A stretch of 64,000 bases of DNA, taken from IMG/VR virus record IMGVR_UViG_3300028581_000013. One strand, given 5' to 3'. The stretch is from a virus. The notes beneath the pieces were generated by a model. That model saw nothing but the letters and a program-made list of their open reading frames with translations. It was not told the DNA's origin and did no database searches. Position 1 is the stretch's first letter. Each line of letters opens with the position of its first letter. This document shows positions 34,449 to 49,373 of the stretch, piece by piece. A program made the translations under genes and the position numbers.

Positions 34449-36206
34449 ATGCCTGTTGCCTTTCGCACACTTAAACAAGGTGTAGTAAGTTCTGGTTCAA
34501 GAACTTTCAATAGTCCTGGAAATTTTCAAATCCCTTTAGGCATAACACAAGTTAACCTATCGGGATTTGGTGCGCAAGGTATTCAAGGTGCAAGAGGTAA
34601 TACAGGAACACCGGGTACTATTGGAAATCCAGGAAATGCTGGGAATCCAGGTTCAAATGGCGTTGGTGGTCCAGGTGGTGTTGGCGGTAATGCAGGTGCA
34701 TTAGGTAATCCGGGAACAGCTGGTACAGCAGGAAATCCAGGTACAGCTGGCACTGCAGGTGCTGGTGGTAACGGTGGTGCTGGAGGTCCTGGAGGTTCAA
34801 GAGGAGTTACCTCACTTACAAATCGTGGAGTTTCTTGGTCAAATACTAGTGGATTTGTTGTTCAACCTGTAAATGCTCCTAGGGGACCTAGTGGTAATGC
34901 AGCAAGTGGTAGAGGAGGCACTGGAGGACTTGGAGCAGTACACAGCAGCCTTAGTCCAAGGTCTTATGGTATGACGGCTATTGGATCAGGAAGTGGAAAT
35001 GTTGTATATCCTCAATCAGCAATTGGAACTACAAATTTGGTCAGCAACACTATTTACACCCCTATTATGGGTGGTTATGGTGGTGATGGTGGATCAACTG
35101 GAGGGTCAGGATCACCAGGAAATCCAGGAACTCCAGGAAGTACCGGCACAGCAGGTACACCAGGAAGTGCAATTGTTACCGCAGGTTCTGGCGGTGCAGC
35201 GCCATCAACATGGGTTGGTAAAGACGGTACAGCAGGAAATCCAGGTAATGCAGGTAACTTTGGTTCATCAGGAACACCAGGAAATACTGGCGCAACTGGT
35301 ACACCAGGAAATTTAACATATTTTGACACAGTAAATAATTATACATGGAATGGTGGCGCTGGAGGATTAGGTGGCGCAGGAAGTCCTGGAGGATTAGCAG
35401 GACCAGGAACAGCTGGCGGTGCTGCTGGATTAATTGGAAATCCAGGAAATCAAGGTGCAACAGGAAATTCTGGAAATCCAGGAGCTAATGGCAATGGAGG
35501 TTTAGCTGGCAACGCTGGCGTAGGAAATCCAGGAACGGCTGGAAGTCAAGGTGGTGGAGGCGGTGGTGGCGGTGGTGGTGCAGCCGCTCTATATTGGGGC
35601 GCAGAAAATTCTCAATTTTGTTCGCCTTTAGGAAATAATCCTGGATTTTTTAATCCAGCATCAAGTCAGATGAATCATGTTTCTTGGTTTAATAATGCAA
35701 GATATAATTCAGGAACAGGAAATGCTACTGCTGGTCGTGCTGGTAATTCTAACAATTCTGGTTTTGGATTAGGTGGCGCTTCAGGAACAGCAAACTTTTC
35801 TTTCACACCATATCTCACTAATGATTATACAGGCATGTCACCTGTAGGAAGTCCAGGTGCAACGGGTGGTGCCGGTTCAGTAGGAAATGCTGGTGCAAAT
35901 GGAAATGCAACATCTGGTGGTGCTGGTGGTAACGGAAATGCTGGTTCGGCCGGCAATCCAGGAACTACCGGTGTTACTGGAAATATAGGAACAGGTGCAA
36001 CTTTAGGGGGTTCTGCTTCGCCAGCACCAACAACTTGGGACGGAAAAGATCCAGGACTTGGAGTGTTAGGTTCTACAGGTGATGCAGGTGAAACTAAGTC
36101 TTATAATTCAGTATCAGTAAATCGTAGAGGAATATATCCTATTGGAATAGGCACAGGAACAAATTCAGGATCAGTTACAGTATCTTGGAACAGAACAGTT
36201 AATTAA
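34449..36206 (+). CDS. collagen-like / Gly-rich (G-X-Y) virion protein
   Basis: Several G-X-Y runs (GNPGNAGNPGSNG, GSPGNPGTPGSTGTAGTPG) interrupted by poly-Gly and non-repeat loops. Confidence 0.8.
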   Translation: MPVAFRTLKQGVVSSGSRTFNSPGNFQIPLGITQVNLSGFGAQGIQGARGNTGTPGTIGNPGNAGNPGSNGVGGPGGVGGNAGALGNPGTAGTAGNPGTAGTAGAGGNGGAGGPGGSRGVTSLTNRGVSWSNTSGFVVQPVNAPRGPSGNAASGRGGTGGLGAVHSSLSPRSYGMTAIGSGSGNVVYPQSAIGTTNLVSNTIYTPIMGGYGGDGGSTGGSGSPGNPGTPGSTGTAGTPGSAIVTAGSGGAAPSTWVGKDGTAGNPGNAGNFGSSGTPGNTGATGTPGNLTYFDTVNNYTWNGGAGGLGGAGSPGGLAGPGTAGGAAGLIGNPGNQGATGNSGNPGANGNGGLAGNAGVGNPGTAGSQGGGGGGGGGGAAALYWGAENSQFCSPLGNNPGFFNPASSQMNHVSWFNNARYNSGTGNATAGRAGNSNNSGFGLGGASGTANFSFTPYLTNDYTGMSPVGSPGATGGAGSVGNAGANGNATSGGAGGNGNAGSAGNPGTTGVTGNIGTGATLGGSASPAPTTWDGKDPGLGVLGSTGDAGETKSYNSVSVNRRGIYPIGIGTGTNSGSVTVSWNRTVN

Positions 36207-36228: not shown

Positions 36229-36825
36229 ATGTTATATGCGATTGCACCGTCACCAAATTTTGGCATAACAGAACAAGATTTCGTAACTTGGAATGGTGGG
36301 TTTACTGATGAAGAAATATCTAAGATAATAGAACTAGGAGATTCTTTAGAGAAAGAAGATTCTAAGATAGATGCTGGTGAGGTTTCTCCAAAAGATGTGC
36401 GAATAAGTGACATATCTTGGATACACCCCAGTGAAAAGAATGTATGGATATTTAATAAATTATCTTGGATATTAAGGCAGTTGAACGGACAATTTTATCG
36501 ATTTAATATTACTGGATTCAATGAATCTATACAATATACAACATATTATGGTAAACAAGAAGAAGGTGGTCATTATCGGTGGCACGCAGATCACGGACAA
36601 GATGCACCAAGAAAGTTATCAATGGTATTACAGTTGAGTGACCCAAGTGAATATGAGGGCGGTAATTTAGAAATATTGTCTAGTCAAGGAGAAGTATTGA
36701 CTGTAGATAAAAAGAAAGGATTTTTAGCAATGTTTCCTTCTTTTAAAACACACAGAGTAACACCAGTTACTTCAGGAATTAGAAAAAGTTTAGTAGTTTG
36801 GGCTACTGGTCCAGCGTTTGTATAA
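36229..36825 (+). CDS. 2OG-Fe(II) oxygenase (PKHD/prolyl-hydroxylase-like)
   Basis: HYRWHAD (HxD), RKLS..LQLS....YEGG.L, FPSF..HRVTPVTSG.RKSLV.W. Confidence 0.92.
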   Translation: MLYAIAPSPNFGITEQDFVTWNGGFTDEEISKIIELGDSLEKEDSKIDAGEVSPKDVRISDISWIHPSEKNVWIFNKLSWILRQLNGQFYRFNITGFNESIQYTTYYGKQEEGGHYRWHADHGQDAPRKLSMVLQLSDPSEYEGGNLEILSSQGEVLTVDKKKGFLAMFPSFKTHRVTPVTSGIRKSLVVWATGPAFV

Positions 36826-36859: not shown

Positions 36860-37198
36860 ATGCCGGCAGCCTATTCAAATCTATACATCGAACAAGGTAC
36901 TTCTTTCACTACGACAATCACCGTTGATGATGTCTATGGAGATGTCTTTGATTTGACAAACTATACGGCTCAGAGCCAAATTCGTAAGTCACATTATTCC
37001 GCTAACACCACGGCTACGTTTACTACGAGTGTCAATTCTGGTCAAGGTTCAATTACTCTTAGTTTATCTTCAGCAGTAACGGCAAATATTGCCCCAGGTC
37101 GTTATGTTTATGATACCAAAATTATTGGAACAAATAATGGCCAAATTACAAGAATATTGGAAGGTTCTGTAGATGTTTCTCCATCAGTTACGAGGTAA
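36860..37198 (+). CDS. small Ig-like structural adaptor protein
   Basis: NLYIEQG.SF, DLT.YTA.SQIRK, GRYVYD, RILEG...VSP.VTR. Confidence 0.7.
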   Translation: MPAAYSNLYIEQGTSFTTTITVDDVYGDVFDLTNYTAQSQIRKSHYSANTTATFTTSVNSGQGSITLSLSSAVTANIAPGRYVYDTKIIGTNNGQITRILEGSVDVSPSVTR

Positions 37199-37201
37199 AA
37201 A

Positions 37202-37429
37202 ATGCCAGATCAAACCATAGGAACAGTAAGAGTACAAGTAGGTACAACAGTTAATCCAAGAGTTAGCTCGATTAATTATGGCGGTTCAGGTACAATTAAA
37301 GGTGCTACTGATGTTGATGTTAGAGGTGCTGCAGACGGAGAAGTTCTGGTATATAGAGCTGCAACCGATTCGTTTATTGTTGCACCAGTATCGGCCGCTG
37401 TGGCTGGACTAGACGCAGGAACATTCTAA
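37202..37429 (+). CDS. small fibre-connector protein
   Basis: DV....A.DG.VLVY motif; ends LDAGTF. Confidence 0.65.
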   Translation: MPDQTIGTVRVQVGTTVNPRVSSINYGGSGTIKGATDVDVRGAADGEVLVYRAATDSFIVAPVSAAVAGLDAGTF

Positions 37430-37666
37430 GTGTCCAATACATCAATACAAATACTTCGGTCGTATGCAAATACGAGACCAACAACTCTCAATGATGGTGA
37501 GTTGGCTTATTCTTTTATAGCCAATACACTTTATATTGGTGATAGGACTGGTCAAATTATTAGAATTGGTGGTCTCACAACCACCGAAAATGCAGCAAAT
37601 ACAATAGTTCTAAGAGATTCAGCAGGTAATATAAATGTAGCTACCGTAGACGGTGGAAATTTCTAA
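37430..37666 (+). CDS. minimal fibre segment (gp37-N-like domain plus DGGNF tail)
   Basis: GTG start; IQILRS....RPTTL.DGELAYS....TLYIG; ends VDGGNF. Confidence 0.7.
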   Translation: MSNTSIQILRSYANTRPTTLNDGELAYSFIANTLYIGDRTGQIIRIGGLTTTENAANTIVLRDSAGNINVATVDGGNF

Positions 37667-37705
37667 ATAGTAATAGTGGTTAACGCCTAATAATAAGGAA
37701 AACAA

Positions 37706-39514
37706 ATGGCAAATACAAATATTTTAATCAAACGCTCGTCAAGCACAACCAGACCAAGTTCCCTGGCAGCTGGTGAGTTAGGTTATTCGTATCTATCGAA
37801 TACTCTTTTCTTAGGTACTGCCGCTGGTAACGGTGCCATCAACGTTGGTGGTGTCTATTATACTCAAGCAATCGACAATGCAACTTCGGCTGCAACTCCA
37901 GACACAATCGTTAAACGTGATGCTTCAGGTAATTCAACCTTTACAAACATCACAGTAACAGGATTCATTTCTGGTACAATTGACGGTGTTGCCAATGCTG
38001 CTGTCCGTCTACAGACACCAAGAAGTTTCTCTATTTCTGGTGGCGACATCTCTGCTACCGGCGTTAACTTTGATGGTACAGGTGCAGTTACATTAAATGC
38101 CTCACTTAATGCCATTCCAGGTCTAAGTGCTGGTTCATACGGTTCTTCTACTGCCATTCCAGTTGTTACTGTTGCCGCTAACGGACGTGTTACAGCCATT
38201 TCAACGCAGTCCATTTCCACATCATTTGGTCTTTCTGGTGATTCCGGTACAACTCAAATTGATGGTGGTGAAACACTATATGTGGTTGGTGGTGCTGGCA
38301 TCACATCGGCAATTACAGCCAACACAATTACATTAGATGTTGACACAACTGTTGTTCGTTCCAATACAGCAATCACAAGTCAAACAATTGATGGTTCTGT
38401 AACAATTGCTGGCAATTTAACAGTTCAAGGTATGCATACAACAGTTAATACAGCTACATTGAATGTTGTTGACCCATTAATTATTTTAGCTTCGAACAAT
38501 AGTTCTGATGCGGTTGACATTGGTTTTGCTGGACATTACACGGATGGTAGTAGTGTTGCAAGACATACTGGTTTCTTCCGTGATGCTGGTACAAAAGAAT
38601 ACTATGTATTTGATGGATACACTCCAGAATTAATTGGTAATAGTATCGATGTAGCCAACGCCAGCTTTAACACAGCAAACGTTAATGTTGGATATGTTAA
38701 ATCTACTGGCATTATTAACAATGGTATCAATTTAGATACTCATATTCAAGGTCTATACAACCTTGCCAATACAACATCAACAACAGCAAGTAATGCAAAT
38801 GCTAATACTATCTACACACAAGGCGTAGATGCAACACAAAATACCAACATTACTCATGCTGATACCAAGGCACAAGCTGCTTTCGATAAGGCAAATAATG
38901 CTGTAGTAGCATCAACTGACTTTACGTTTGGTCAGATGGTTGTTGCAGATGGTACAGATTCGTTAAAGAGTCTTGCCAATGCTTCTTATACATTAACTGG
39001 TTCTTTAGCTGCTGCTAAAACAATCACATCACTTTCAGTTGACAATTATGGTCGTGTAACTGCTGCTACTGGTGCTGATATTGCAATTAATGCATCACAG
39101 ATTACTGCTGGCACATTGGGTGTTGAAAGAGGCGGTACAGGCCAAGGTTCATTTACAAATGGTGCAATTCTTGTTGGTAATGGCTCAGGCGCTTTACAAA
39201 CTCTTGCTAACTCAACATACACAGCAACAGGTTCTGGTGCCGCTAACAATACAGTATCTTCGTTAAGTGTTGATGCTTATGGTCGTGTAACAGCTGCAAC
39301 GTTCTCTGCAATCTCTGGTCTAACAATTGGCCAAGGCGGTACAGGTCGTTCAACATTTACTACTAACGGTCTAGTATATGGTAACTCTACTGACGGACTA
39401 TTAGTAACTGCAGCTGCTGGTACTTCTGATCAAACATTTAGTAATCAACTTCTTACTGTTACTAATGCTGGTGTTCCGGTTTGGACAAGTGCTCTTGATG
39501 GAGGCACATTCTAA
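37706..39514 (+). CDS. tail fibre protein
   Basis: ILIKRSS...RPSSLAAGELGYS N-domain; VD.YGRVTAA and V..GGTG fibre repeats; ends LDGGTF. Confidence 0.8.
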   Translation: MANTNILIKRSSSTTRPSSLAAGELGYSYLSNTLFLGTAAGNGAINVGGVYYTQAIDNATSAATPDTIVKRDASGNSTFTNITVTGFISGTIDGVANAAVRLQTPRSFSISGGDISATGVNFDGTGAVTLNASLNAIPGLSAGSYGSSTAIPVVTVAANGRVTAISTQSISTSFGLSGDSGTTQIDGGETLYVVGGAGITSAITANTITLDVDTTVVRSNTAITSQTIDGSVTIAGNLTVQGMHTTVNTATLNVVDPLIILASNNSSDAVDIGFAGHYTDGSSVARHTGFFRDAGTKEYYVFDGYTPELIGNSIDVANASFNTANVNVGYVKSTGIINNGINLDTHIQGLYNLANTTSTTASNANANTIYTQGVDATQNTNITHADTKAQAAFDKANNAVVASTDFTFGQMVVADGTDSLKSLANASYTLTGSLAAAKTITSLSVDNYGRVTAATGADIAINASQITAGTLGVERGGTGQGSFTNGAILVGNGSGALQTLANSTYTATGSGAANNTVSSLSVDAYGRVTAATFSAISGLTIGQGGTGRSTFTTNGLVYGNSTDGLLVTAAAGTSDQTFSNQLLTVTNAGVPVWTSALDGGTF

Positions 39515-39552
39515 GTAATACTATATAATTTTTTTATAATAGGGAGTTTGAA

Positions 39553-40158
39553 ATGGGTAATGAAAAGTTTGTTAATTATTATATTGAGGGATTGATTACT
39601 ACATTAAATGATTGTTTGATAAGAAACATTTCATTACAAGCAAATGACAGAATCAGCAAAGAAATAATTGAGGAACACACTAAGAAGGTTGAAGGTTTAG
39701 ATGGTACTATTAATGCTCTTAAAGTAGATTTAGAATCTGCTAAAAAACAGCAAAATGATTCTGATAATCAACGTTATCAAAATTTAGAAAATAGTATCAA
39801 AGACCATGTAAACACAATCAACACATTGAATCAGGAGATTTCTCAGTTAAAAACAATGAAAGCTGAATATGAAAATGTTAAACATCAAGTACAACATGTA
39901 GACACTTTCAGAACCGAGTTAAACAAAACACGGGAAGAATTAAATAATGTTCGTGTTGATAATGAAAAAATTATTGCTGATTTAACTAGTTCGTATGAAT
40001 TAAAAATTAAAGAACTAAATGATAAGATTGACTATTTACAATTAACTCCTGCTAAAAGAAAAAAAGTTGAGGAAGTAAAAAAAGAAGTTACTGAAACACC
40101 AACATTGGATGTTTTTAGTAATTCGGAAGATACACTCAAAGATGGCGGAAGTTTTTAA
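39553..40158 (+). CDS. coiled-coil protein ending in DGGSF
   Basis: Long heptad-rich charged sequence; C-terminal LKDGGSF. Confidence 0.7.
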   Translation: MGNEKFVNYYIEGLITTLNDCLIRNISLQANDRISKEIIEEHTKKVEGLDGTINALKVDLESAKKQQNDSDNQRYQNLENSIKDHVNTINTLNQEISQLKTMKAEYENVKHQVQHVDTFRTELNKTREELNNVRVDNEKIIADLTSSYELKIKELNDKIDYLQLTPAKRKKVEEVKKEVTETPTLDVFSNSEDTLKDGGSF

Positions 40159-40163
40159 GGTAA

Positions 40164-40655
40164 ATGGCAAACACAACAGTACAGTTAAAGAAATCAGGTG
40201 TAACAGGTAACGTACCACCTTCACTATCGTATGGTGAGTTGGCGTTAAACTACGCTGATGGAAAACTGTTCTATAAAGCCTCAAATGGTTCAATCGCTAG
40301 TATTTCTACTAGCCCAGCAACCGATTCTTTTGCTACAATCAATGCTAATTCTTCTCTGATATTAGCAACTTCTCCGTATGATACACTATCAATTCTTCCT
40401 GGTAATAATATTACCATATCTACGGACACATTTAATAAAAGAATCACAATTAATTCTACAGCAAGCGGCGGTGGCGATTCAACCGATCAATTTGCCAGAG
40501 ATAAAGCCAATTCAGCCAATGTTTTGGCTCAAGCGGCTTTTGATCAAGCAAACACGGGAGCAGGAACTTATACGATAACCGGTGGTCAATATATAGACCA
40601 CGGTTGGATACCCCAAACACCGGGTCCAATATTATTCGATTACGGAACACTATAA
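40164..40655 (+). CDS. short fibre connector (gp37-N-like domain)
   Basis: VQLKKSGVTGNVPPSLSYGELALNYADGKLFYK; ends FDYGTL. Confidence 0.72.
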   Translation: MANTTVQLKKSGVTGNVPPSLSYGELALNYADGKLFYKASNGSIASISTSPATDSFATINANSSLILATSPYDTLSILPGNNITISTDTFNKRITINSTASGGGDSTDQFARDKANSANVLAQAAFDQANTGAGTYTITGGQYIDHGWIPQTPGPILFDYGTL

Positions 40656-40658
40656 ATA
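40651..40658 (+). promoter_or_regulatory. T4-type late promoter
   Basis: Exact TATAAATA 22 nt upstream of the ATG at 40680. Confidence 0.7.
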
Positions 40659-40679
40659 TACATATAAGTTGGAAAAAAT

Positions 40680-42572
40680 ATGGCAGCTAACAATTCTACT
40701 ATAGTTCAAATCCGTAGAGGTACTACGGCACAGACAGCATCTTTTACTGGTGCTTTGGCCGAACTCACGGTTGATACAGACCAAAAAACAGTTGTTGTTC
40801 ATGATGGTGTAACTCTAGGTGGTACAACACTTGCAACTAAATCATTTGCTCAAGCGGCTTTTAATGCAGCCAATACTGCCACAGGTACAGTTGGTCAATT
40901 AGCATTTGATAAAGCCAATTCAGCCAATGTGTTAGCACAGGCATCATATAATTTTGCAAACACAATTGCTGCTGGTGCTATTTCTAATGTATCATTAACA
41001 TTTTCTAATACTGCTTCTGGTACAATACCAGCAGTTAACAGTTTAAAACCAGGTGAACCATCTATCAATCTAATTGATGGTAGAATGTTTATTCAATTAA
41101 ACAATGGTCAAATTATTGATATATCTTCTGCACCAACAGGTAACACTTGGCATGTGGCAATGAATGGTAACGATAACTTTAAAGGTGATACACCAAGTGC
41201 CGCTAAGGCAACCATTCGTGCAGCTGTAGCTCTGGCACAACCTGGTGATTCTGTTGTAGTTCATTCAGGAACATATACAGAAATTACACCAATTATTATT
41301 CCACAGAATGTTCAAGTACAAGGTTCTGGTGAAAGAACTTGTATTATTAAACCAACAACAACTTCTAATAATGTTTTCTATGTAAACAATAACAGTTATG
41401 TAACTGGTTTTAAATTTATAGAATATACTGGTGCCGCTGTTTCTTTTCCAACAACTACATTAGAAACAGGTACAGCACAAGCCGGTGGTGCAAATACAAT
41501 TACTTTAAATTCTGGCGCATCGACTTACACCGATCATTATAAGAGTATGAAAGTTACTATTACTGGTGGAACAGGATCAGGACAATCAGCCAATGTTTCT
41601 TCTTACAACGGCACAACAAAAGTTGCCACAGTAGATGCAAACTGGTCAACACAACCAAATAATACTTCTGTATATTCTTTAGGCATACCACTTAGAAATT
41701 CACCTGCAGCTGCAAGTTCTAGGTATACCACATACATTACTGGTAGTCCATACATTTATAATTGCTCGTCAATCACAACGACAGGAACAGGCATCAAAAT
41801 CGATGGAGATTTGGCGACAGGCAACAAGAGTATTATCTCTGCACAATTCACTCAGGTCAATTCTGGTGGTACGGGGATACATGTATTGAATGATGGTTAC
41901 ACACAGTTGGTTTCCATTTATGGTATTTTCTGTGATACGGCATTCTTAGCCGAATCAGGTGGTACTGCTTCAATGGGTAACTGTAACGTAAACTTTGGTA
42001 ACAAAGGTTTAGTTGCCAACGGTAAAGGTAAGTTGGCGATGACAGCTAATTTGTCAATGACTAGTGCTGAAGCAACTTTTACAATCGACCTAAATAATGT
42101 CGTAGCGAATAGTGCTTTGGGAATCACAGCAACTATTCCATACACAGGTTTGATTATGAAAATAGATGGAGATGCAGCTGAAAGTTATTATCCTGTTACT
42201 GAAGCAACAACATTAAGTGGTGGTAATACAACAGTAACATTCCAAAACTCAATTGCAAATTCATTCTCAAGTGGAACAGGTGTTAAATTTTATCAGCAAA
42301 GTCAATTGAGAGCATCCGGCCAGACTTTTGAATATGTTGGTGCTGGTACATCAATTAATGCTTTACCTAAGTTAGGTGGTATTGCTAACTCGGCTGCACA
42401 GATAATTGGAATTGATGAAGGTGCTGTGTTTGCTACTTCAACAGACCAAAGTGGTAATTTTGTTGTATCTGATTTAACGATTAATCAGTCAACATCTACG
42501 ATTTCAGGAAGAACCTTTTCGAAAAGTCTTTTTGCTGAAATGACTCCTTATATACTCGCTCTAGAAGGTTAA
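40680..42572 (+). CDS. tailspike-like protein: Mtd-N-like domain plus pectin-lyase-like beta-helix
   Basis: VQIRRGTT.....FTGA.AELTVDTD.K..VVHDG...GG; WHVAMNGND...G......KATIRAA, V..G.Y.E..P. Confidence 0.7.
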   Translation: MAANNSTIVQIRRGTTAQTASFTGALAELTVDTDQKTVVVHDGVTLGGTTLATKSFAQAAFNAANTATGTVGQLAFDKANSANVLAQASYNFANTIAAGAISNVSLTFSNTASGTIPAVNSLKPGEPSINLIDGRMFIQLNNGQIIDISSAPTGNTWHVAMNGNDNFKGDTPSAAKATIRAAVALAQPGDSVVVHSGTYTEITPIIIPQNVQVQGSGERTCIIKPTTTSNNVFYVNNNSYVTGFKFIEYTGAAVSFPTTTLETGTAQAGGANTITLNSGASTYTDHYKSMKVTITGGTGSGQSANVSSYNGTTKVATVDANWSTQPNNTSVYSLGIPLRNSPAAASSRYTTYITGSPYIYNCSSITTTGTGIKIDGDLATGNKSIISAQFTQVNSGGTGIHVLNDGYTQLVSIYGIFCDTAFLAESGGTASMGNCNVNFGNKGLVANGKGKLAMTANLSMTSAEATFTIDLNNVVANSALGITATIPYTGLIMKIDGDAAESYYPVTEATTLSGGNTTVTFQNSIANSFSSGTGVKFYQQSQLRASGQTFEYVGAGTSINALPKLGGIANSAAQIIGIDEGAVFATSTDQSGNFVVSDLTINQSTSTISGRTFSKSLFAEMTPYILALEG

Positions 42573-42576
42573 TAAA

Positions 42577-42918
42577 ATGGCAACACAAATTCCATTAAAT
42601 ACATTTAAAACAACAACAGCCAACGTTACAACGTCAACGACAACCGTATATACCACACCTGCTGGTGTAACAACTGTTGTTCTGTTGACACAAGTTTCAA
42701 ATATTGATCCTACTAATTCTGTAACTGTTTCGGCTAACCATGTTCGTAGTGGTAATTCAGTATCACTTATTAAAAATACAACCATACCTGTTAGTGATGC
42801 TGCAAGTCTGTTAACTGGTAAATTAATATTACAAACTGGAGATTCATTCTCAATTAGTGCTAGTGCAAACGACAGAGCACAATTGGTATTATCTTATCTC
42901 GAAACTGCTAACGCTTAA
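42577..42918 (+). CDS. small beta-rich structural protein
   Basis: TVYTTPAG.TTVV, KLIL.TGD; similar to 47176-47505. Confidence 0.65.
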   Translation: MATQIPLNTFKTTTANVTTSTTTVYTTPAGVTTVVLLTQVSNIDPTNSVTVSANHVRSGNSVSLIKNTTIPVSDAASLLTGKLILQTGDSFSISASANDRAQLVLSYLETANA

Positions 42919-42926
42919 TATAAAAC

Positions 42927-44006
42927 ATGTCGACCAAATCCAGATTAATTAGTGGCCGTGTACCTGTAACTAGTGCAGCTAACGTTGCAGCTAATAGATA
43001 TCAATACTTAGACCTAAGTTCTGCTGAGCCAAATCTTGGTACAGGTAATACTGGTGATGTATTAATTTATGATAGTACATTTCCAGGTGGTCGTAAGTGG
43101 ACTGCTCAAGCTGAAATTCGTGGATCAATTGGTGAAGCTGCATACTCAGAGGCAAACACTGCTTCAGCAAATACATTATATCTCTCTGGTGTTGATGTTG
43201 CACAGAACACCAGACTTACAGCCGTAGAAACTAATGCACAAGCAGCCTTTAATGCTGCCAATACAAAGTTGTCATCTTCAGGTGGTACAATCACTGGATC
43301 ATTAAATGTATCACAAGATTTAGCCGTTACAGGAAACTTGACTGTACTAGGTACAACAACAACAATCAATACAACTTCATTTACTGTTATCGATTCTTTA
43401 ATAACATTAGGAACAGGAAATTATACATCCGATTTATTAGACATTGGTATTAGTGGTCACTACAATGATGGCACCAATGCACACACAGGATTCATAAGAG
43501 ATCCTGACACAAAAGAATGGTATGTATTTAAAGGTTATACTCCTGAAATTACTGCAAATAACAATGTTAATATTAACCATGCTTCATTTGCTAAAGCTAA
43601 TGTTAATGCAGACTACTTTAAAGGTAATGTAGCATTCCCGGATGGTACCACACAAACAACAGCTGCAACAGGCATAGATTCGTATGCTAGAACAACAGCA
43701 AACACCGTTTCTGCAAACACCATTTATACTCAAGGTGTTGATGTTACACAGAATACAAATATTACCAACATAAATTCTTTAGCACAAGCTGCTTTCAACA
43801 GAGCAAACTCTGGTGCTCGAGCAACATCAAGTAACACAGCACCTACAGGTAATACTGTTGGTGATTTATGGTTAAGTTTAACAGATGAAACATTGTATAT
43901 GTATTCATATGATGGTGTAAGTAATAATTGGATTGATATTTCTGGACCAATACTGATATCGTCCAATATTCTTGTTCAATACACCATCACATCTAATGTA
44001 AGTTAA
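42927..44006 (+). CDS. fibre-like structural protein
   Basis: SAEPNLG; GNLTV.GTTT and DIG..GHY.DG...HTGF.RD..TKE domain shared with 37706; AP.....GDLW C-terminal motif. Confidence 0.7.
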   Translation: MSTKSRLISGRVPVTSAANVAANRYQYLDLSSAEPNLGTGNTGDVLIYDSTFPGGRKWTAQAEIRGSIGEAAYSEANTASANTLYLSGVDVAQNTRLTAVETNAQAAFNAANTKLSSSGGTITGSLNVSQDLAVTGNLTVLGTTTTINTTSFTVIDSLITLGTGNYTSDLLDIGISGHYNDGTNAHTGFIRDPDTKEWYVFKGYTPEITANNNVNINHASFAKANVNADYFKGNVAFPDGTTQTTAATGIDSYARTTANTVSANTIYTQGVDVTQNTNITNINSLAQAAFNRANSGARATSSNTAPTGNTVGDLWLSLTDETLYMYSYDGVSNNWIDISGPILISSNILVQYTITSNVS

Positions 44007-44015
44007 GGATTAGAA

Positions 44016-45419
44016 ATGCCATTAAATGAAACCTCGAACACTACGGTACAATTTACAGTAACTACAACCAACACAGCCGATGGTACCACATTGTATTGGA
44101 AGACCACGGGTAACACCACCAATTCGGATATTGTTGGCGGTAATACGGGTTCTATTACAGTTACAAATAATCGTGCTGTATGGAATGTAACAATTTCAGC
44201 GGATGATGCTACAGATGGAACTAAAACTTTAGGTATTCAAATTCTTACTGGCTCATTAGATGGTACACCAGTAGTAAATACCGCAAGCCCAATTGTAATT
44301 ACTGATACCTCTCAAACACCAGACTATGGTTATTTGTATACATGGGGTAATAACACATACGGAGTTTTAGGTACCGGAGGTGGGGGTGTTTTAAGTCCAG
44401 TTCAAGTTGGATCTCTAACAACTTGGATGAATATTTCTGCTGGTCACAATCATACTATATCAAAAAAATCTGATTATACTTTGTGGGCTTGGGGATTTAA
44501 CGGTAACGGACAATTGGGTAACAATAGTATAACTTCAGTAGGTAGTCCTATACAAATTGGAAGCGCTACGAATTGGAATAAAGTTTCAGCCGGATACAAT
44601 ACTTCATTTGCAATCAAAGACAACGGCACATTATGGGCTTGGGGTGATAATTCATATAGACAATCAGGTATAGGATATGGAGGACCTGGTTATTTTACCT
44701 ATGTACCAACACAAGTAGGATCATTAACAACTTGGGCAGAGGTTGTCGGTGGATATACTCACACATTAGCAGTTAAAAACGATGGTACCTTGTGGGTTTG
44801 GGGTACAAATGGAAATCCAAGTAATACTGGTGCTTTAGGATTAAATGAATCTAGCCCATATGTAATAACAGATAGTCCTGTGCAAAATGGATCATCAACA
44901 AATTGGTCAAAAGTTTCCGCTGGAACTCGAAATAGTGCAGCAATTAAAACTGATGGAACATTGTGGACTTGGGGAGCTCCAGGACTATCTCTTGGTCATA
45001 ACACTACATCTCATAGGTCCAGTCCAACACAAGTCGGAACAGGAACAAATTGGTCAAACGTTTCTATGAGTGGTGATAGAGCTCTAGCAATCAAAACCGA
45101 TGGAACACTATGGGCATGGGGAAATAATAATCGAGGCCAATTAGGTACAAATAACACAAATAATTATTCCAGTCCTGTTCAGATAGGAACCGATACAACT
45201 TGGCGTGAAGTTTTTTGTGGTAAAAATAATGAATTTACACTAGCAACTAAAACAAATGGTACATTATGGTCTTGGGGATTGGGCAATGCAGGTGGCGGCA
45301 CCAGTCCGTTAGGATTGGGTTCAACCACTAGTAGATCAAGTCCCGTTCAAGTCGGAACAGGAACAACTTGGTTGCGAGCCACATCCACTCTATATGCTGG
45401 CCTGGCTATATTAGGTTAA
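44016..45419 (+). CDS. RCC1/BLIP-II-like 7-blade propeller with N-terminal Ig-like domain
   Basis: Seven SP.Q.G..T.W / K.DGTLW.WG repeats. Confidence 0.88.
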   Translation: MPLNETSNTTVQFTVTTTNTADGTTLYWKTTGNTTNSDIVGGNTGSITVTNNRAVWNVTISADDATDGTKTLGIQILTGSLDGTPVVNTASPIVITDTSQTPDYGYLYTWGNNTYGVLGTGGGGVLSPVQVGSLTTWMNISAGHNHTISKKSDYTLWAWGFNGNGQLGNNSITSVGSPIQIGSATNWNKVSAGYNTSFAIKDNGTLWAWGDNSYRQSGIGYGGPGYFTYVPTQVGSLTTWAEVVGGYTHTLAVKNDGTLWVWGTNGNPSNTGALGLNESSPYVITDSPVQNGSSTNWSKVSAGTRNSAAIKTDGTLWTWGAPGLSLGHNTTSHRSSPTQVGTGTNWSNVSMSGDRALAIKTDGTLWAWGNNNRGQLGTNNTNNYSSPVQIGTDTTWREVFCGKNNEFTLATKTNGTLWSWGLGNAGGGTSPLGLGSTTSRSSPVQVGTGTTWLRATSTLYAGLAILG

Positions 45420-45827: not shown

Positions 45828-47165
45828 ATGGCATTTCCAACCTCACCGGCAAATAATCAAACCGCTCTAGTAAACGGCATTGTTTATCAATGGAATGCTG
45901 CGCTTGGTGCTTGGAAAAGAAACGGTTCAATTAACTCCGCTACTATCGGCCAATTAGTTTTATCTTCAGGACAAATCTCCACATCAAATGTATCAGGCAC
46001 GTTAATCGTTTCTGGTGGTGTAGGCATCACAGGTAATTTATATACAGGTGGCATTTATGTTACTGGTGCCAATGGTATTACATTCTCAGATGGTTCGGTA
46101 CAAACATCTGCTGGCGCTTCAGCGGCCACAGGTGCAGCTGCTTTTGATCAAGCTAATGCGGCCAATCAATATGCTAATTCAGCTTATGCTCAAGCTAATG
46201 CAGCCAACTCTTTAGCTGGTTCAGCTTACGGCCAAGCAAACGCAGCCTTTGCACAAGCTAATGCGGCCAATCAATATGCTAATTCGGCCTTTGCAAAAGC
46301 CAATACTGTAGCCAGTGATTTAGCAAACTTTAGTTCTTTGTTTGCTGGTATTGAAGTAACACAAAATACTAGAATTGGTAATGCAGAAACACAAACACAA
46401 GCCGCTTTTGATAAAGCAAACTCAGCCAATGTACTGGCACAGGCAGCTTTCAATACAGCCAATACAAAATTCTCATCATCTGGTGGTACAATTACTGGTG
46501 ATACAGTAGTAACAGGAAACTTAACAATTACTGGTGCCACCGTATATGCAAACACAGAAAACTTAACTGTCAAAGATAACATCATTACATTGAATTCAAA
46601 TGTAACTGGTGCACCTTCTTTAAGTGCTGGTATTGAAGTCAATCGTGGTTCTTCTACCAATACAAAACTATTATGGTCTGAAGCCAATACGGCTTGGGAA
46701 TTTACCAACAACGGAACAACTTACGAAAAGATTGCTGGACTAACATACGTTCAAGCAGCCTTTAATGCAGCTAACACTGCTGGTGGTGCTGATACATTTG
46801 CTAGACAAACAGCCAATGCTGCATTCACTCAAGCTAATACAGCAACAACATTAGCACAAGCAGCCTTTAATAAAGCAAACACATCTGATGCCGTATTAAC
46901 TTCTACTGTTGATACATTCACAGGTGATGGTTCAACTGTTGCATACACATTATCAACAACACCAGCAACTATTAACTATACAACGGCTGTGATTGGTGGT
47001 GTTACACAACCAAGGTCTGCTTACTCTGTTGTTGGAACAACACTTACATTTACCTCTGCACCAGCCAATACTCAGATTATAGAAGTAACAACAATTGGTA
47101 CATCCAATACCACACTATATACAGTTAATAATATTATTAGTCCATTCTTATTGATGGGCGCTTAA
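45828..47165 (+). CDS. fibre protein with Ala/Asn heptads and C-terminal TGDGS domain
   Basis: MAFPTSP N-terminus, A(F/Y)xQAN repeats, AGIEVNRG, FTGDGSTVAYTL; ends ISPFLLMGA. Confidence 0.72.
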   Translation: MAFPTSPANNQTALVNGIVYQWNAALGAWKRNGSINSATIGQLVLSSGQISTSNVSGTLIVSGGVGITGNLYTGGIYVTGANGITFSDGSVQTSAGASAATGAAAFDQANAANQYANSAYAQANAANSLAGSAYGQANAAFAQANAANQYANSAFAKANTVASDLANFSSLFAGIEVTQNTRIGNAETQTQAAFDKANSANVLAQAAFNTANTKFSSSGGTITGDTVVTGNLTITGATVYANTENLTVKDNIITLNSNVTGAPSLSAGIEVNRGSSTNTKLLWSEANTAWEFTNNGTTYEKIAGLTYVQAAFNAANTAGGADTFARQTANAAFTQANTATTLAQAAFNKANTSDAVLTSTVDTFTGDGSTVAYTLSTTPATINYTTAVIGGVTQPRSAYSVVGTTLTFTSAPANTQIIEVTTIGTSNTTLYTVNNIISPFLLMGA

Positions 47166-47175
47166 AGGAAATAAA

Positions 47176-47505
47176 ATGCCAATAACATATAAAGTTCTAG
47201 GACAAATTAACCCAACAGCACACACAGCAACAACTGTGTATACTGTGCCATCTCTTACAAGTACCATATTGAGTACTGTTACAGTATGTAATCAGGCAAA
47301 CACAGGTGCTACATTTAGATTGGCTGTTCGGCCATCTGGTGAAGCACTTGCAGCTAAACATTATATTAACTATGATACTCCCGTTCCAGGTAATGATACT
47401 GTTTCGTTAACACTCGGTATTACATTGGCTGCTACAGATGTTCTTACTGCCAATGCAAATACTTCTTTTGTAAGCATCAATGCATATGGTAGTGAGATTA
47501 GTTAA
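47176..47505 (+). CDS. small beta-rich structural protein
   Basis: YKVLGQ..P, VYTVP, LTLGITLAATDV, YGSEI. Confidence 0.7.
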   Translation: MPITYKVLGQINPTAHTATTVYTVPSLTSTILSTVTVCNQANTGATFRLAVRPSGEALAAKHYINYDTPVPGNDTVSLTLGITLAATDVLTANANTSFVSINAYGSEIS

Positions 47506-49373
47506 TGGCAATTACAACAGCAAGCCAATCTCAGATAGGACAAGAAACAGCCAAGAATAGTCAGATTGTTACAACATCTGTCAGATTGGTAAATTCTGGT
47601 GCGTCTACAGGTCCTTCTATTTCATCTATTGTTGTAACTGATAGTGGTTATAATACTTTAGATGATACGGCTGCTGCAATCAGCAATTCATATATTCGTA
47701 TTCTTGGTAGTAATTTCACTTCAACAGCGAATGTGTTTCTTAATGGTACGATGATACCAACAGCCAATGTTACATTTGTAAATTCATCAGAATTGAGAGC
47801 TCAATTACCTGTTTCAAACACAGGAAACTATGCAGTATCGGTTTACAATTCAAATTCATCAGGTGCTTTATACTCTAGTTCATTTGTTATTTCAACCATG
47901 CCACAATGGTTAACATCAACAACTTTAGCTAATGTAACATCTAATATTGCATTTTCTAATACATTATCCGCAACATCAGATTCATCAGTTACATACTCGA
48001 ATACCACAATACTACCAACAGGCTTTAATTTATTGTCCAATGGATATTATTATGGTACCATAACATCAGCTAATACTTATTCATTTGGTGTTAAAGCTAC
48101 AGATGTTGAAAATCAAGATTCTACCAGAACATTTAATTTAACTGTCAGTGCTTTTTTACCTGTGCCGACATCGATTGACTATTTGTTAATAGCAGGTGGT
48201 GGTGCAGGCGGAGGTTCTGGAACTGGTGGTACAGTTGATGGTGCCGGTGGTGGCGCTGGCGGTTGGTTAGAAGGAACAATAACAGGAAGTGGATTGGCTT
48301 ATACTGTTACGATAGGTGCTGGTGGTGCTTCAGGTTCACAAAGAGGTGACAATTCGACTTTAGCTAATTCTTCTATAACACGACTCACTTATGGTGGAGG
48401 TATGGGTGGCGGTGCAGGATCATCACAACCTTATTCTTATAATGGCCAAGATGGAGGTTCAGGTGGTGGCGGAGGAATACACAGCGGCGTAACAAATGTA
48501 GGAAATTCCATACAAACAAGTAATAATGGCGGAACTGGATATGGAAATGCTGGAGGCGCAAACCAAACCGGAGCTCCATATACTGGAGGTGGTGGTGGTG
48601 GAGCTGGAGCAGTAGGTGTTTCTGGAACTAGCGGAGGTGCTGGCGGTGCTGGAAAACAATGGTTAGATGGAACTTATTATGCTGGTGGTGGAGGTACAGG
48701 ATCTAACAGCTATGGAGCCGTTAACGGTCTTGGTGGCACCGGTGGTGGTGGCACAGGAGGCACTAGTGCTGGTTCAACAAATACTGGAGGAGGCGGTGGT
48801 GGTAGAATGTTTGCCGGTGGATCTGGTGTTTGTATATTCAGGTATCCTGATTCATTTGCACTTGCAACTTCAACAACTGGATCACCAACAGTAACAACTT
48901 CTGGTGGATACAGATATTATAAATTTACTTCTTCTGGAGCAATTACGTTTTTGCAATCATATAGATATTTTAGAGTAACATTAAATTCAGTAAATGGTGG
49001 CGGCTCGCAAGCTCAATTAACAGAATTATCATTTAGAGATAGTGCTGGAAATTATATCACACAAACATTATCTTCTCCTGTAGCTCCTAGTGCTGGATCA
49101 TTAACAAATCTGAATAATCAAAATGCTACAGCGCTGGACGATACTAATATGAATCCTCTGCCATTTGTAGTTGATTACGATATGGGATCTGAAAAATATG
49201 TAGGTACTGATGTAAAATTTTTACGAATAGGTAGTTCAGATGATTCTACCCGATATGTAAGTAATATAACAGTTAGTGCAAGTAATGATAATTTGAATTT
49301 TACAGAAATAATTAGTGGTACTCCGCCTAGTTATGCTGGTATAAGAGTGCTACAAAATTGGGCAATAGCTTAA
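47505..49373 (+). CDS. IPT/Ig stalk plus glycine-rich domain plus C-terminal discoidin-like domain (putative adhesin)
   Basis: DSGYNTLDDTAA stalk shared with the RCC1 proteins; YLLIAGGGAGG...YYAGGGG...GGSGVCIFRYP; YRYFRV. Confidence 0.72.
   Translation: MAITTASQSQIGQETAKNSQIVTTSVRLVNSGASTGPSISSIVVTDSGYNTLDDTAAAISNSYIRILGSNFTSTANVFLNGTMIPTANVTFVNSSELRAQLPVSNTGNYAVSVYNSNSSGALYSSSFVISTMPQWLTSTTLANVTSNIAFSNTLSATSDSSVTYSNTTILPTGFNLLSNGYYYGTITSANTYSFGVKATDVENQDSTRTFNLTVSAFLPVPTSIDYLLIAGGGAGGGSGTGGTVDGAGGGAGGWLEGTITGSGLAYTVTIGAGGASGSQRGDNSTLANSSITRLTYGGGMGGGAGSSQPYSYNGQDGGSGGGGGIHSGVTNVGNSIQTSNNGGTGYGNAGGANQTGAPYTGGGGGGAGAVGVSGTSGGAGGAGKQWLDGTYYAGGGGTGSNSYGAVNGLGGTGGGGTGGTSAGSTNTGGGGGGRMFAGGSGVCIFRYPDSFALATSTTGSPTVTTSGGYRYYKFTSSGAITFLQSYRYFRVTLNSVNGGGSQAQLTELSFRDSAGNYITQTLSSPVAPSAGSLTNLNNQNATALDDTNMNPLPFVVDYDMGSEKYVGTDVKFLRIGSSDDSTRYVSNITVSASNDNLNFTEIISGTPPSYAGIRVLQNWAIA

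What the first reader, a model, noticed from the sequence alone, without database searches (positions are those of the whole stretch)
36860..42572. Plug-and-socket fibre chaining: five consecutive proteins end in D-x-G-x-(F/L), and gp37-N-like sockets recur
Seen: the C-termini are LDAGTF (37429), VDGGNF (37666), LDGGTF (39514), KDGGSF (40158) and FDYGTL (40655). The N-terminal domain I/V-x-x-(K/L)-(R/K)-S...P..L..GEL occurs in 37430, 37706 and 40164. 40680 has a related Mtd-N-like domain plus a second internal copy (GTIPAVNSLKPGEPSINLIDGRMFI). From memory, T4 gp37 begins QIQFKRS...[15 protein letters not shown] and binds the gp36 C-terminus, which ends DFGYY. Inference: the single gp36-gp37 joint has been multiplied into a modular connector code that builds long or branched fibres. 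The 78-aa 37430 protein is almost nothing but socket plus plug, so it could be a spacer or could self-polymerise.
Basis: partly seen in the sequence, partly recalled or inferred. Interest (0 to 1): 0.82.

Follow-up and report, generated by a model that had tools for sequence, protein, structure and literature searches.

The report
Serial plug-and-socket phage fibre joints
A distant T4-like marine phage encodes a tail-fibre set as seven neighbouring genes. Five of the proteins end in a short D-x-G-x-F peptide that most likely clips onto a small cap domain at the start of the next protein, which is the same kind of joint that links gp36 to gp37 in phage T4, used several times in a row.

Summary
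Five consecutive + strand genes (37202-40655) end in LDAGTF, VDGGNF, LDGGTF, KDGGSF and FDYGTL. Genome-wide, 6 of 160 ORFs end in D-x-G-x-[FL], against 0.08 expected.

- **Sockets:** Three genes start with a cap domain that matches T4 gp37 residues 1-48 (E 1.4e-14). 40680 starts with Pfam Mtd_N and holds a partial internal copy of the cap.
- **Adjacency:** In 80 uncultured-phage loci, 63 of 114 genes just upstream of a cap gene end in D-x-G-x-[FYL], against 34 of 700 other genes. The same pairing occurs in T4 (gp36 ends DFGYY) and in cultured Prochlorococcus, Limnohabitans, Ralstonia, Vibrio and Achromobacter phages.
- **Binding model:** A complex model placed residues 64-75 of the 75-aa protein on residues 2-26 of the 78-aa protein (ipSAE 0.67, best control 0.00).
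- **Anchor:** The first gene of the module (36860) is an LtfC/p132-type fibre-anchoring collar protein.

Not shown: a specificity "code" (P=0.10), branching, or self-polymerisation of the 78-aa protein. There are more plugs than N-terminal sockets, so the wiring is unresolved.

This scan has noted the same joint on other DNA. I found no paper that describes it at this level. Verdict: a real, widespread joint and a new variant of a known kind.

The parts
36860..37198 (+). LtfC/p132-type beta-sandwich collar protein (112 aa). Probable anchor of the fibre chain on the tail. It has no plug (ends SPSVTR).
   Evidence: PHROG 3304 'L-shaped tail fiber protein assembly', E 1.2e-22. Pfam LtfC, E 9e-5, below the cut-off. 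AF2 model pLDDT 89. Best PDB matches are the DT57C baseplate 8hqz_T/Q and the T5 tail tip 7qg9_L/J, TMq 0.76-0.80, E 1e-9 to 5e-9. It comes first in the conserved module in relatives.
37202..37429 (+). 75-aa adaptor: beta-rich N-part plus a C-terminal plug, LDAGTF (codons 37409-37426).
   Evidence: D71, G73 and F75 invariant in 6 relatives. Residues 64-65 and 67-75 form the modelled interface. An adaptor of 65-112 aa with a plug always follows the LtfC-like gene.
37430..37666 (+). 78-aa mini-protein: N-terminal cap ('socket', residues 1-49, 37430-37576), a short stalk, and the plug VDGGNF (37646-37663).
   Evidence: Residues 2-13, 15, 17-18, 24 and 26 form the modelled interface. In relatives it is a 65-aa protein (L006, L017) or is absent. 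In L007 its cap type heads a 2266-aa fibre.
37706..39514 (+). 602-aa fibre protein: socket (residues 1-50, 37706-37855) and plug LDGGTF (39494-39511).
   Evidence: Residues 492-602 match the C-terminal ends of fibre proteins of Prochlorococcus phages MED4-213 and P-HM1; the MED4-213 protein, which I read, ends IDGGTF. PHROG 15769/697.
39553..40158 (+). 201-aa coiled-coil protein: conserved N-terminal 45 aa, variable helical middle, plug KDGGSF (40138-40155), no cap domain.
   Evidence: Only coiled-coil-type Pfam noise. In the 12-member family the N-terminus is the most conserved part and the last F is invariant. Between fibre 1 and a cap gene, 15 loci hold a small coiled-coil-rich gene by a crude composition filter; 11 loci besides the window hold a member of this family.
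40164..40655 (+). 163-aa protein: socket (residues 1-50, 40164-40313) and the second-flavour plug FDYGTL (40635-40652).
   Evidence: Roughly half of 36 non-redundant genes upstream of Mtd_N-type caps carry D-[YFWMA]-G within their last 7 residues (my count from the list).
40680..42572 (+). 630-aa fibre protein: Mtd_N cap (residues 9-45, 40704-40814), a partial second cap (about residues 112-149, 41013-41126), no D-x-G-x-F plug (ends ...PYILALEG).
   Evidence: Pfam Mtd_N. PDB Mtd 1YU0, E 4.5e-13. Internal copy. PHROG 17885 'tail fiber protein', E 4e-71. The AF2 model failed, pLDDT 36.

Best explanation
The seven genes 36860-42572 encode one multi-protein tail-fibre assembly of a distant T4-like myovirus.

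**Mechanism.** Each segment is probably a trimer. It ends in a free C-terminal peptide (consensus D-G/A-G-x-F/Y-COOH, with a second flavour D-Y/F-G-x-L/I/Y). That peptide lies as an extra strand on a roughly 48-residue cap domain (I-x-I/L-K-R/K-S ... P..L..GEL-A) at the N-terminus of the next segment, which is usually the product of the next gene. This is the same kind of joint as T4 gp36 (ends DFGYY) with the N-terminal region of gp37.

**Most likely order here** (gene order):
1. LtfC/p132-like collar, the anchor on the tail
2. 75-aa adaptor
3. 78-aa mini-segment
4. 602-aa fibre
5. 201-aa coiled coil, either in line or at the knee
6. 163-aa segment
7. 630-aa fibre

**Basis of each step.**
- Shown: the motifs, their conservation, their adjacency statistics, and the homology to gp37-N, Mtd_N and LtfC.
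- Predicted by a model: the peptide-on-cap contact for one pair.
- Inferred: the order, the trimer state, the role of the coiled coil, and the position on the virion.
For: 1. **Enrichment.** 6 ORFs of 160 end in D-x-G-x-[FL] against 0.08 expected; 5 are consecutive.
2. **Conservation.** All plugs, sockets and the gene order are kept in IMG/VR relatives at 64-96% identity of the collar protein.
3. **Adjacency.**
   - In 80 loci fetched by the cap domain alone, 63 of 114 genes directly upstream of an N-terminal cap end in D-x-G-x-[FYL]; with the loose pattern it is 84 of 114. Other genes: 34 of 700.
   - Of 97 genes with the strict ending, 63 are followed by a cap gene. Another 20 are followed by one small intercalated gene; the loci I read through show a cap gene after it. 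For 13 my ORF caller found no downstream gene, although each of those loci was fetched by a cap match just downstream. One is FDYGTL followed by Mtd_N.
4. **Same pairing in named phages:** T4 gp36/gp37, Prochlorococcus MED4-213, Limnohabitans DC31, Ralstonia PY059YO380, Vibrio 1.293.O (a podovirus) and Achromobacter Motura.
5. **Homology to T4.** A cap HMM built without T4 hits gp37 residues 1-48 at E 1.4e-14. gp36 is known to bind the N-terminal region of gp37 (PMC3004832).
6. **Complex model.**
   - Setup: (78 aa)x3 + (75 aa)x3, own alignments.
   - Score: ipSAE median 0.67, best of 3 controls 0.00. That mark was reached by 58 of 80 solved complexes and 2 of 110 mismatched pairs.
   - Quality: the runs agree in at least 95% of contacts; partner pLDDT is at least 66.
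   - Interface: residues 64-75 of the plug protein against residues 2-13, 15, 17-18, 24 and 26 of the cap.
   - No like complex is in the PDB by sequence, so this is not a recall of a solved structure.
7. **Protein-level constraint.** Plug codons vary freely among synonyms and spacers run from -1 to 144 nt.
8. **Linear motif.** Plug carriers are structurally unrelated (small beta adaptor, long fibre, coiled coil), which points to a short linear motif and not a shared domain.
9. **Not a general fibre feature.** Distal cap-bearing fibres lack the plug: 3-4 of the 150 best cap proteins have it.
Against: - No experiment exists. One pair was modelled, in a six-chain set-up unlike the tool's calibration and with shallow alignments (5-6 rows).
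- The cluster has 5 plugs but only 4 N-terminal caps, and the fifth cap is internal and partial. Either the 602-aa fibre's plug or the coiled coil's plug therefore has no assigned partner.
- A sixth plug sits on a membrane protein in the replication module. A pure fibre-joint model does not predict that.
- The relation between the GELA-type cap and Mtd_N is not established by profile comparison (hhalign probability 10%).
- In Synechococcus phage S-CBS2 the motif lies a few residues before the C-terminus.
- Some cap genes have no plug gene upstream, for example ACG-2014f and about half of the Mtd_N cases.
Confidence: 0.7

Rival explanations
1. The joint is the same, but the wiring is branched and not a linear chain in gene order. 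That gives a forked fibre. Alternatively the coiled coil is a transient assembly factor that occupies a cap until the fibre joins.
For: There are five plugs against four N-terminal caps plus one internal partial cap. The Vibrio podovirus 1.293.O has three plugs for two caps. Fibre 1 and the coiled coil both keep their plugs across loci.
Against: The conserved N-terminal 45 aa of the coiled-coil family could itself be the receptor for the fibre-1 plug, which would make the chain linear. The internal copy of 40680 aligns only from profile position 12, so its first-strand equivalent is degenerate, and the first strand carries most modelled contacts. No model or data exist for any of these pairs.
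Confidence: 0.2
2. The terminal D-x-G-x-F is an address tag read by a shared assembly factor (a chaperone, protease or membrane tether) and not by the next fibre segment. Its position next to cap genes would only reflect that fibre genes cluster.
For: The same ending sits on a conserved 4-TM membrane protein outside the fibre cluster and is kept in 66 of its 120 closest relatives. There are more plugs than caps.
Against: The last fibre of each module never carries the tag, although it is a fibre gene in the same cluster. The tag tracks the presence of a cap on the next gene. The complex model places the tag on the cap, with controls at 0.00. The T4 gp36-gp37 contact is established (PMC3004832).
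Confidence: 0.08
3. The ending is a self-contained structural cap of each trimer (an intramolecular last strand) with no partner. Alternatively it is a nucleotide-level signal, such as a ribosome-binding site for the next gene lying in the GGNGG codons.
For: Gly-Gly codons are purine-rich and lie near the next start in some junctions.
Against: Spacers range from an overlap to 144 nt. In the window, two junctions have 38-39-nt spacers. All Gly, Asp and Phe codons are used. The carriers have unrelated folds. No fused plug+cap occurs inside one ORF.
Confidence: 0.02

Closest known systems
Phage T4 long tail fibre, distal half: gp36 joined to the N-terminal region of gp37 (PMC3004832; PMC5537660)
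   Same: The cap domain of 37430, 37706 and 40164 is homologous to gp37 residues 1-48. The partner is the product of the gene just upstream and ends in D-x-G-x-aromatic (gp36: DFGYY). The proteins are separately encoded and assembled head to tail.
   Different: T4 has one such joint; here there are four or five in series. Segments can be as small as 75-78 aa. One carrier is a coiled coil. No gp35-like kneecap is recognisable. The atomic nature of the T4 joint is not in the PDB copy searched, so 'peptide on cap' is a prediction for both phages.
T5/DT57C lateral tail fibre attachment: LtfC (p132) dodecameric collar holding the N-terminal strands of LtfA/pb1 (PMC10713586; PDB 8HQZ, 7QG9)
   Same: 36860 has the LtfC/p132 fold (TMq 0.76-0.80) and PHROG family. 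It is followed directly by the protein it would hold, as in DT57C. There, attachment is also by donated beta-strands.
   Different: The host virion is a T4-like myovirus, not a siphovirus. The protein after the collar gene is a 75-aa adaptor with a plug, not a long fibre. The Pfam score is below the family cut-off. Ring stoichiometry and location are unknown.
Bordetella phage BPP-1 major tropism determinant Mtd, N-terminal domain (Pfam PF18454; PDB 1YU0)
   Same: 40680 residues 6-67 align to Mtd residues 2-63 at E 4.5e-13. The domain sits at the very N-terminus of a receptor-binding fibre protein.
   Different: The rest of 40680 is unrelated to the Mtd C-type lectin. The Mtd structures hold no partner peptide. 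Here the upstream protein ends in FDYGTL, and roughly half of 36 Mtd_N-type genes have a like ending upstream. That association is not described in the papers I could search.
Branched receptor-binding protein complexes built on T4 gp10-like domains (CBA120 TSP1-4, G7C gp63.1/gp66, Klebsiella KP32-type anchor-branch systems; PMC6872550). Named from my own knowledge.
   Same: Several separately encoded receptor-binding proteins are joined through small N-terminal docking modules, and gene order mirrors assembly.
   Different: Those systems use gp10-like XD domains or 'conserved peptides' at N-termini. They show no terminal D-x-G-x-F peptide and no gp37-N cap. No gp10-like domain was detected in the seven proteins here.

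Membership tests
T4 gp36-gp37-type fibre joint | The downstream protein starts with a domain homologous to the N-terminus of T4 gp37. | tested here: met
   An HMM of the window's and relatives' caps, with no T4 sequence in it, hits gp37 residues 1-48 at E 1.4e-14.
T4 gp36-gp37-type fibre joint | The partner is encoded by the adjacent upstream gene and ends in D-x-G-x-aromatic/aliphatic. | tested here: met
   Window junctions. T4 gp36 ends DFGYY. 63 of 114 upstream genes against 34 of 700 others.
T4 gp36-gp37-type fibre joint | The upstream protein physically binds the N-terminal region of the downstream protein. | not testable with these tools
   Established for T4 (PMC3004832). Here there is only a model: ipSAE 0.67 against a best control of 0.00. 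That mark was reached by 58 of 80 solved complexes and 2 of 110 mismatched pairs; partner pLDDT is at least 66 and the runs agree in at least 95% of contacts. The model supports binding but does not show it.
T4 gp36-gp37-type fibre joint | Both partners are homotrimers. | not tested
   Three copies of each chain were assumed. No oligomer test was run.
Pfam Mtd_N (PF18454) | Score above the curated cut-off. | tested here: met
   For 40680 only: 53.3 bits against a cut-off of 26.3, residues 9-45. PDB Mtd, E 4.5e-13.
   No Pfam hit at E<=0.1. hhalign of A4 against A6 aligns in the expected register, but with E 0.003 and probability 10%.
LtfC/p132 collar (Pfam PF23926, PHROG 3304) | Sequence membership. 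| tested here: inconclusive
   Pfam 23.4 bits is below the cut-off of 27. PHROG 3304 gives E 1.2e-22 over the whole protein.
LtfC/p132 collar (Pfam PF23926, PHROG 3304) | The single-domain beta-sandwich fold of LtfC/p132. | tested here: met
   Model pLDDT 89. The top four PDB matches are chains of the DT57C baseplate (8hqz_T/Q) and of the T5 tail tip (7qg9_L/J), which I take to be LtfC and p132: TMq 0.76-0.80, 23-27% identity, E about 1e-9. The next hits are generic Ig folds at E 8e-6 or worse.
LtfC/p132 collar (Pfam PF23926, PHROG 3304) | Forms a ring on the tail that holds fibre N-termini by strand donation. | not testable with these tools
   Known for DT57C (PMC10713586). Here it is only inferred from the invariable order collar gene then adaptor gene.

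The most novel reading that the evidence does not exclude
The D-x-G-x-F peptide and the gp37-N/Mtd_N cap would form a general wiring system, readable from sequence, that tailed phages of all morphotypes use to bolt together fibres from exchangeable segments with pair-specific matching. The same tag on a conserved 4-TM membrane protein, encoded between DNA polymerase and UvsX, would tether cap-bearing fibre parts to the cell membrane during assembly, or would otherwise use the joint for a non-structural purpose. If so, fibre architecture, including branches, could be predicted and re-engineered from gene ends alone.
Probability: 0.15. Interest if true: 0.85.

Novelty: new variant of a known kind. 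Interest (0 to 1): 0.62.

Why it matters
Tail fibres decide which bacteria a phage can infect. In large marine phages most fibre genes are 'hypothetical', and how their products connect is unknown.

- **Annotation.** A short joint that can be recognised from sequence would let fibre wiring be read from genomes. The cap alone occurs at the N-terminus of proteins in about 21,000 clusters at 50% identity.
- **T4 biology.** It gives a concrete, testable molecular picture of the classical gp36-gp37 junction, for which the PDB copy searched holds no gp36 or gp37 N-terminal chain.
- **Engineering.** It points to natural break points for swapping receptor-binding segments between phages in ordinary laboratory phage-host systems.
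- **Evolution.** It links the T5-type LtfC collar to T4-like myoviruses.

Tried and rejected
- **Near-identical DNA in cultured phages:** none found.
- **Locus search with the broad cap alignment A3:** The narrower alignment A4 worked.
- **Specificity code in the last five residues:** within-locus plug pairs were identical in 1 of 76 cases against 3.6 expected, P=0.10. This is not significant, and the loci are phylogenetically non-independent.
- **GELA-type against Mtd_N-type caps by hhalign:** inconclusive.
- **AF2 model of the 630-aa fibre 40680:** pLDDT 36, unusable, so no fold search was run.
- **PDB sequence search with the cap profile:** only weak NHL-repeat matches (SOQ1), taken as spurious.
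- **Fused plug+cap inside single ORFs:** none. The apparent internal caps were mis-called starts.
- **Ribosome-binding-site or DNA-signal explanation:** rejected.
- **Literature:** searches for the motif strings and for descriptions of the joint found nothing relevant in the held library. Subscription journals are not covered.
- **Short 'socket+plug' minis among the 150 best cap proteins:** uninformative, because the short hits look like truncated gene calls.
- **Second complex job (all-against-all matrix, self-polymerisation of the 78-aa protein):** not possible, because the cap is one job per session.


Full report
**1. What is in the sequence**

The stretch 36860-42572 holds seven tightly packed + strand genes.

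| Gene | Length | Ends in |
|---|---|---|
| 37202-37429 | 75 aa | LDAGTF |
| 37430-37666 | 78 aa | VDGGNF |
| 37706-39514 | 602 aa | LDGGTF |
| 39553-40158 | 201 aa | KDGGSF |
| 40164-40655 | 163 aa | FDYGTL |

The window is the reverse strand of bases 66735-130734 of a 136,428-bp single-contig genome. In a greedy set of 160 ORFs of that genome, D-x-G-x-[FL] occupies 22 of 43,771 positions. Composition therefore predicts 0.08 ORFs ending that way. Six do: five are consecutive and the sixth is elsewhere.

An HMM of the three N-termini (M-A/S-N-T-x-I/V-x-I/L-x-K/R-S ... P..L..GEL) finds these three at E 1e-28 to 1e-33. Beyond them it finds only a partial internal copy in 40680 (about residues 112-150) and a weak stretch in 42927. 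40680 starts with Pfam Mtd_N, and its first 67 residues align to the solved Bordetella phage Mtd at E 4.5e-13.

**2. What kind of phage this is**

There is no near DNA match among cultured phages. Gene 17053-19134 is a T4 gp6-like baseplate wedge protein, about 30% identical to that of cyanophage S-RIM12. DNA polymerase B, UvsX and a DnaB-like helicase lie elsewhere in the genome. This is a distant T4-like myovirus. The relatives found are IMG/VR contigs and marine or freshwater phages, and the window carries a very large array of fibre genes.

**3. The first gene is an anchor**

- 36860-37198 matches PHROG 3304 ('L-shaped tail fiber protein assembly', E 1e-22).
- It matches Pfam LtfC weakly, below the cut-off.
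- A confident model (pLDDT 89) has as its four best PDB matches chains of the DT57C baseplate (8hqz_T/Q) and of the T5 tail tip (7qg9_L/J), which I take to be LtfC and p132. TMq is 0.76-0.80 and E about 1e-9, some four orders of magnitude better than the generic Ig folds that follow.
- In DT57C and T5 this protein forms a dodecameric collar, and the N-terminal strands of the lateral fibre are inserted into it (PMC10713586).

In every relative the LtfC-like gene is followed directly by a 65-112-aa protein that ends in the plug.

**4. The plug and the cap co-occur at gene junctions**

- *Close relatives.* IMG/VR contigs L003-L007 keep all plugs, all caps and the order. In L007 the adaptor (ends FDNGFF) is followed by a 2266-aa fibre that starts with the 78-aa protein's type of cap and has no plug at its own end.
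- *Named phages*:
  - Prochlorococcus phage MED4-213: LtfC-like, then 73 aa ending NGGSF, then a 561-aa fibre (cap, ends DGGTF), then a 68-aa helical protein ending DDF, then a 1324-aa fibre with a cap.
  - Limnohabitans phage DC31: ends ESGQY, then a cap fibre ending DGGTY, then a cap.
  - Ralstonia phage PY059YO380: ends DGGNF, then a cap fibre ending DGGTF, then a cap.
  - Vibrio podovirus 1.293.O: three plugs and two caps, the last cap on a pectin-lyase-fold tailspike.
  - Achromobacter phage Motura: ends DRGTF, then a cap.
  - T4: gp36 ends DFGYY, and gp37 starts with the cap.
- *Cap-selected loci.* I fetched 80 IMG/VR loci by the cap sequence alone. Genes directly upstream of an N-terminal cap end in D-x-G-x-[FYL] in 63 of 114 cases (84 of 114 with a looser pattern), against 34 of 700 for all other genes.
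- *Looking from the plug side.* Of 97 genes with the strict ending:
  - 63 are followed by a cap gene;
  - 15 by a small coiled-coil-rich gene and 5 by a 161-aa proline-rich gene; in the loci I read through, a cap gene follows;
  - for 13 my ORF caller returned no same-strand downstream gene, although each of these loci was fetched by a cap match just downstream;
  - 1 is FDYGTL followed by Mtd_N.
- *Second flavour.* Roughly half of 36 non-redundant genes upstream of Mtd_N-type caps carry D-[YFWMA]-G within their last seven residues, by my count from the list (FDYGTL, YDYGSL, IDYGTL, KDFGYI and others). FDYGTL is therefore a second flavour of the plug, and the T4 DFGYY resembles it.
- *Plug is not a general fibre feature.* Only 3-4 of the 150 best cap proteins in a 1.8-billion-protein library have it. 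There the cap starts within the first five residues in 149 of 150, and about 21,000 clusters at 50% identity carry it at E<=0.001.

**5. The constraint acts on the protein**

Across 74 distinct junction DNAs the spacer ranges from a 1-nt overlap to 144 nt, and all synonymous codons of D, G and F/Y are used. In the window itself two junctions have 38-39-nt spacers. The motif is therefore not a ribosome-binding site or another DNA signal. No locus has a plug and a cap fused within one ORF, so the joint is always between separate polypeptides.

**6. Do plug and cap touch?**

- **Score.** The median ipSAE was 0.67 (runs 0.64-0.76) and the best of three controls was 0.00. In the tool's calibration that mark was reached by 58 of 80 solved complexes and 2 of 110 mismatched pairs.
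- **Quality.** The partner's pLDDT is at least 66 and the runs agree in at least 95% of contacts.
- **Interface.** Residues 64-65 and 67-75 of the 75-aa protein (the last twelve residues, including LDAGTF) lie against residues 2-13, 15, 17-18, 24 and 26 of the 78-aa protein (the I-Q-I-L-R-S strand and the GEL-A turn). The tightest pairs run in register (7 with 70-73, 9 with 72-75), which looks like strand pairing.
- **Caveats.** The model supports binding and does not show it. The six-chain set-up and my own alignments differ from the calibration.
- **Not recalled from a solved complex.** The PDB copy holds no chain matching gp36, the gp37 N-terminus or the cap profile.

**7. Relation to T4**

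A cap HMM built without any T4 sequence hits gp37 residues 1-48 at E 1.4e-14. Trimeric gp36 is known to bind the N-terminal region of gp37 as the first step of distal half-fibre assembly (PMC3004832). None of the papers I could search describes which residues make that joint, the terminal motif, or its recurrence. The library lacks most subscription journals, so this is absence in the papers held, not proof of absence.

**8. What remains open**

- *Wiring.* The cluster has five plugs and four N-terminal caps.
  - A recurrent marine module has this order: collar; adaptor; optional 65-78-aa mini; fibre 1 (cap and plug); coiled coil (plug); fibre 2 (cap, no plug).
  - Fibre 1 and the coiled coil thus both offer a plug to one downstream cap.
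  - The coiled-coil family has its most conserved part in the first 45 residues, a variable middle and an invariant last F. This fits an in-line segment whose N-terminus receives the fibre-1 plug, but a side branch or a transient assembly factor is not excluded.
Its first-strand equivalent (V-S-L-T-F-S-N-T) is degenerate.
- *Code.* Plugs within one locus are nearly always different, but not significantly more so than shuffled sets (1 identical pair of 76 against 3.6 expected, P=0.10).
- *Self-polymerisation of the 78-aa protein.* Not testable here. Comparative data show only that it is optional and sits between two different cap types.
- *GELA-type against Mtd_N-type caps.* The hhalign register is right but the probability is 10%.
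- *Fold of 40680.* The model failed.

**9. Beyond the given coordinates**

- *The chain probably continues.* 40680 ends in a hydrophobic tail (...PYILALEG) and is followed by a 113-aa protein (42577-42918) and then 42927, whose N-terminus (RLISGRVP...RYQYLDLSSAEPNLG) resembles that of an 81-aa adaptor in L033. That adaptor itself ends in a plug and is followed by a cap fibre. The same tail/small-protein/next-gene pattern recurs at 45828-47165 (ends PFLLMGA), 47176-47505 and 47505-49373. Other notes of this scan describe this second joint type; I did not test it.
- *The sixth plug.* It belongs to a multi-TM (about four hydrophobic segments by eye), coiled-coil membrane protein (G000 contig 1, 22532-23593, outside the window) encoded between DNA polymerase and UvsX. 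It has at least 8000 relatives. 66 of the 120 closest keep a plug-like end with varied residues (LDGGDF, LDGGKF, VDGGDF, RDAGTF, MDAGSF), and the rest stop about ten residues earlier. The fibre-joint model does not explain this.

**10. Verdict**

The feature is real, far beyond chance, and most likely a serial use of the T4 gp36-gp37 kind of head-to-tail fibre joint. It is anchored here through a T5-type LtfC/p132 collar protein.

It is not unique to this phage. The pairing is widespread among tailed phages, and this scan has already noted it on other genomes (e1-5645176, e1-5687895, e1-5467569). I re-tested it here independently.

I class it as a new variant of a known kind. The joint exists in T4, but its peptide-on-cap nature, its two plug flavours, its serial use with mini-segments and coiled coils, and its link to LtfC are not described in the literature I could reach.

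Noticed in passing
G000 contig 1, 22532-23593 (- strand), outside the window; held as L094:3533-4594: A 353-aa protein with about four hydrophobic segments (by eye), a coiled coil and a long charged tail ends in LDGGDF. It is the sixth plug-like ending in the genome. It lies between DNA polymerase B and UvsX. It has at least 8000 relatives, and 66 of the 120 closest keep a varied plug-like end (LDGGKF, VDGGDF, RDAGTF, MDAGSF). It has no Pfam or PHROG family.
   Followed up: partly
window 42520-44006 and 47130-49373: A second kind of junction. Fibre proteins ending in a hydrophobic tail (40680: ...PYILALEG; 45828: ...PFLLMGA) are each followed by a 109-113-aa protein (42577-42918; 47176-47505) and then another fibre gene. 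The N-terminus of 42927 resembles an 81-aa adaptor in L033 (1133-1378) that ends in a plug and precedes a cap fibre, so the two joint types may be chained.
   Followed up: partly
window 39553-40158 and relatives (for example L017:2960-3496, L022:3049-3501): The coiled-coil plug-only family has two C-terminal styles: D-G/A-G-S-F and I/L/V-D/N-D-F (also SPDDF in the 68-aa protein of MED4-213). Both styles are directly followed by an L-K-K-S-type cap gene.
   Followed up: partly
L011:6037-9768 (Vibrio phage 1.293.O, Zobellviridae): Two paralogous small proteins (146 and 174 aa) end in DGGDY and DGGSF. They are followed by a 239-aa cap+plug protein and a 682-aa cap tailspike annotated as pectin-lyase fold. 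That is three plugs for two caps in a podovirus. Their N-termini hold a D-L-D-M-x-G-N motif that I recall, from memory only, from T7 gp17-type tail-binding regions.
   Followed up: no
L009:3443-9052 (Synechococcus phage S-CBS2): The plug-like motifs are not terminal here: the proteins end ...VDGGEIT and ...SGGTFGSG, each before a cap gene. A free carboxylate right after the aromatic residue may therefore not be obligatory.
   Followed up: no
window 44016-45419, 50491-52215, 52222-53772, 53778-55586: Four paralogous proteins (42-56% identical) hold repeats that look RCC1-like by eye (...WGxNxxGQLG...). They are probably propeller-type receptor-binding heads. 47505-49373 shares an N-terminal region with three of them.
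   Followed up: no
window 34449-36206: A 585-aa protein made largely of Gly-rich, collagen-like G-x-x runs raises local GC to 0.44. It lies just upstream of the fibre module, next to 36229-36825 (198 aa), which I did not identify.
   Followed up: no
alignment A3 against the PDB: The cap profile weakly matches NHL-repeat blades of plant SOQ1 (GKLA..L.N.LFI.D). This is probably a chance resemblance of short beta-hairpin motifs.
   Followed up: no
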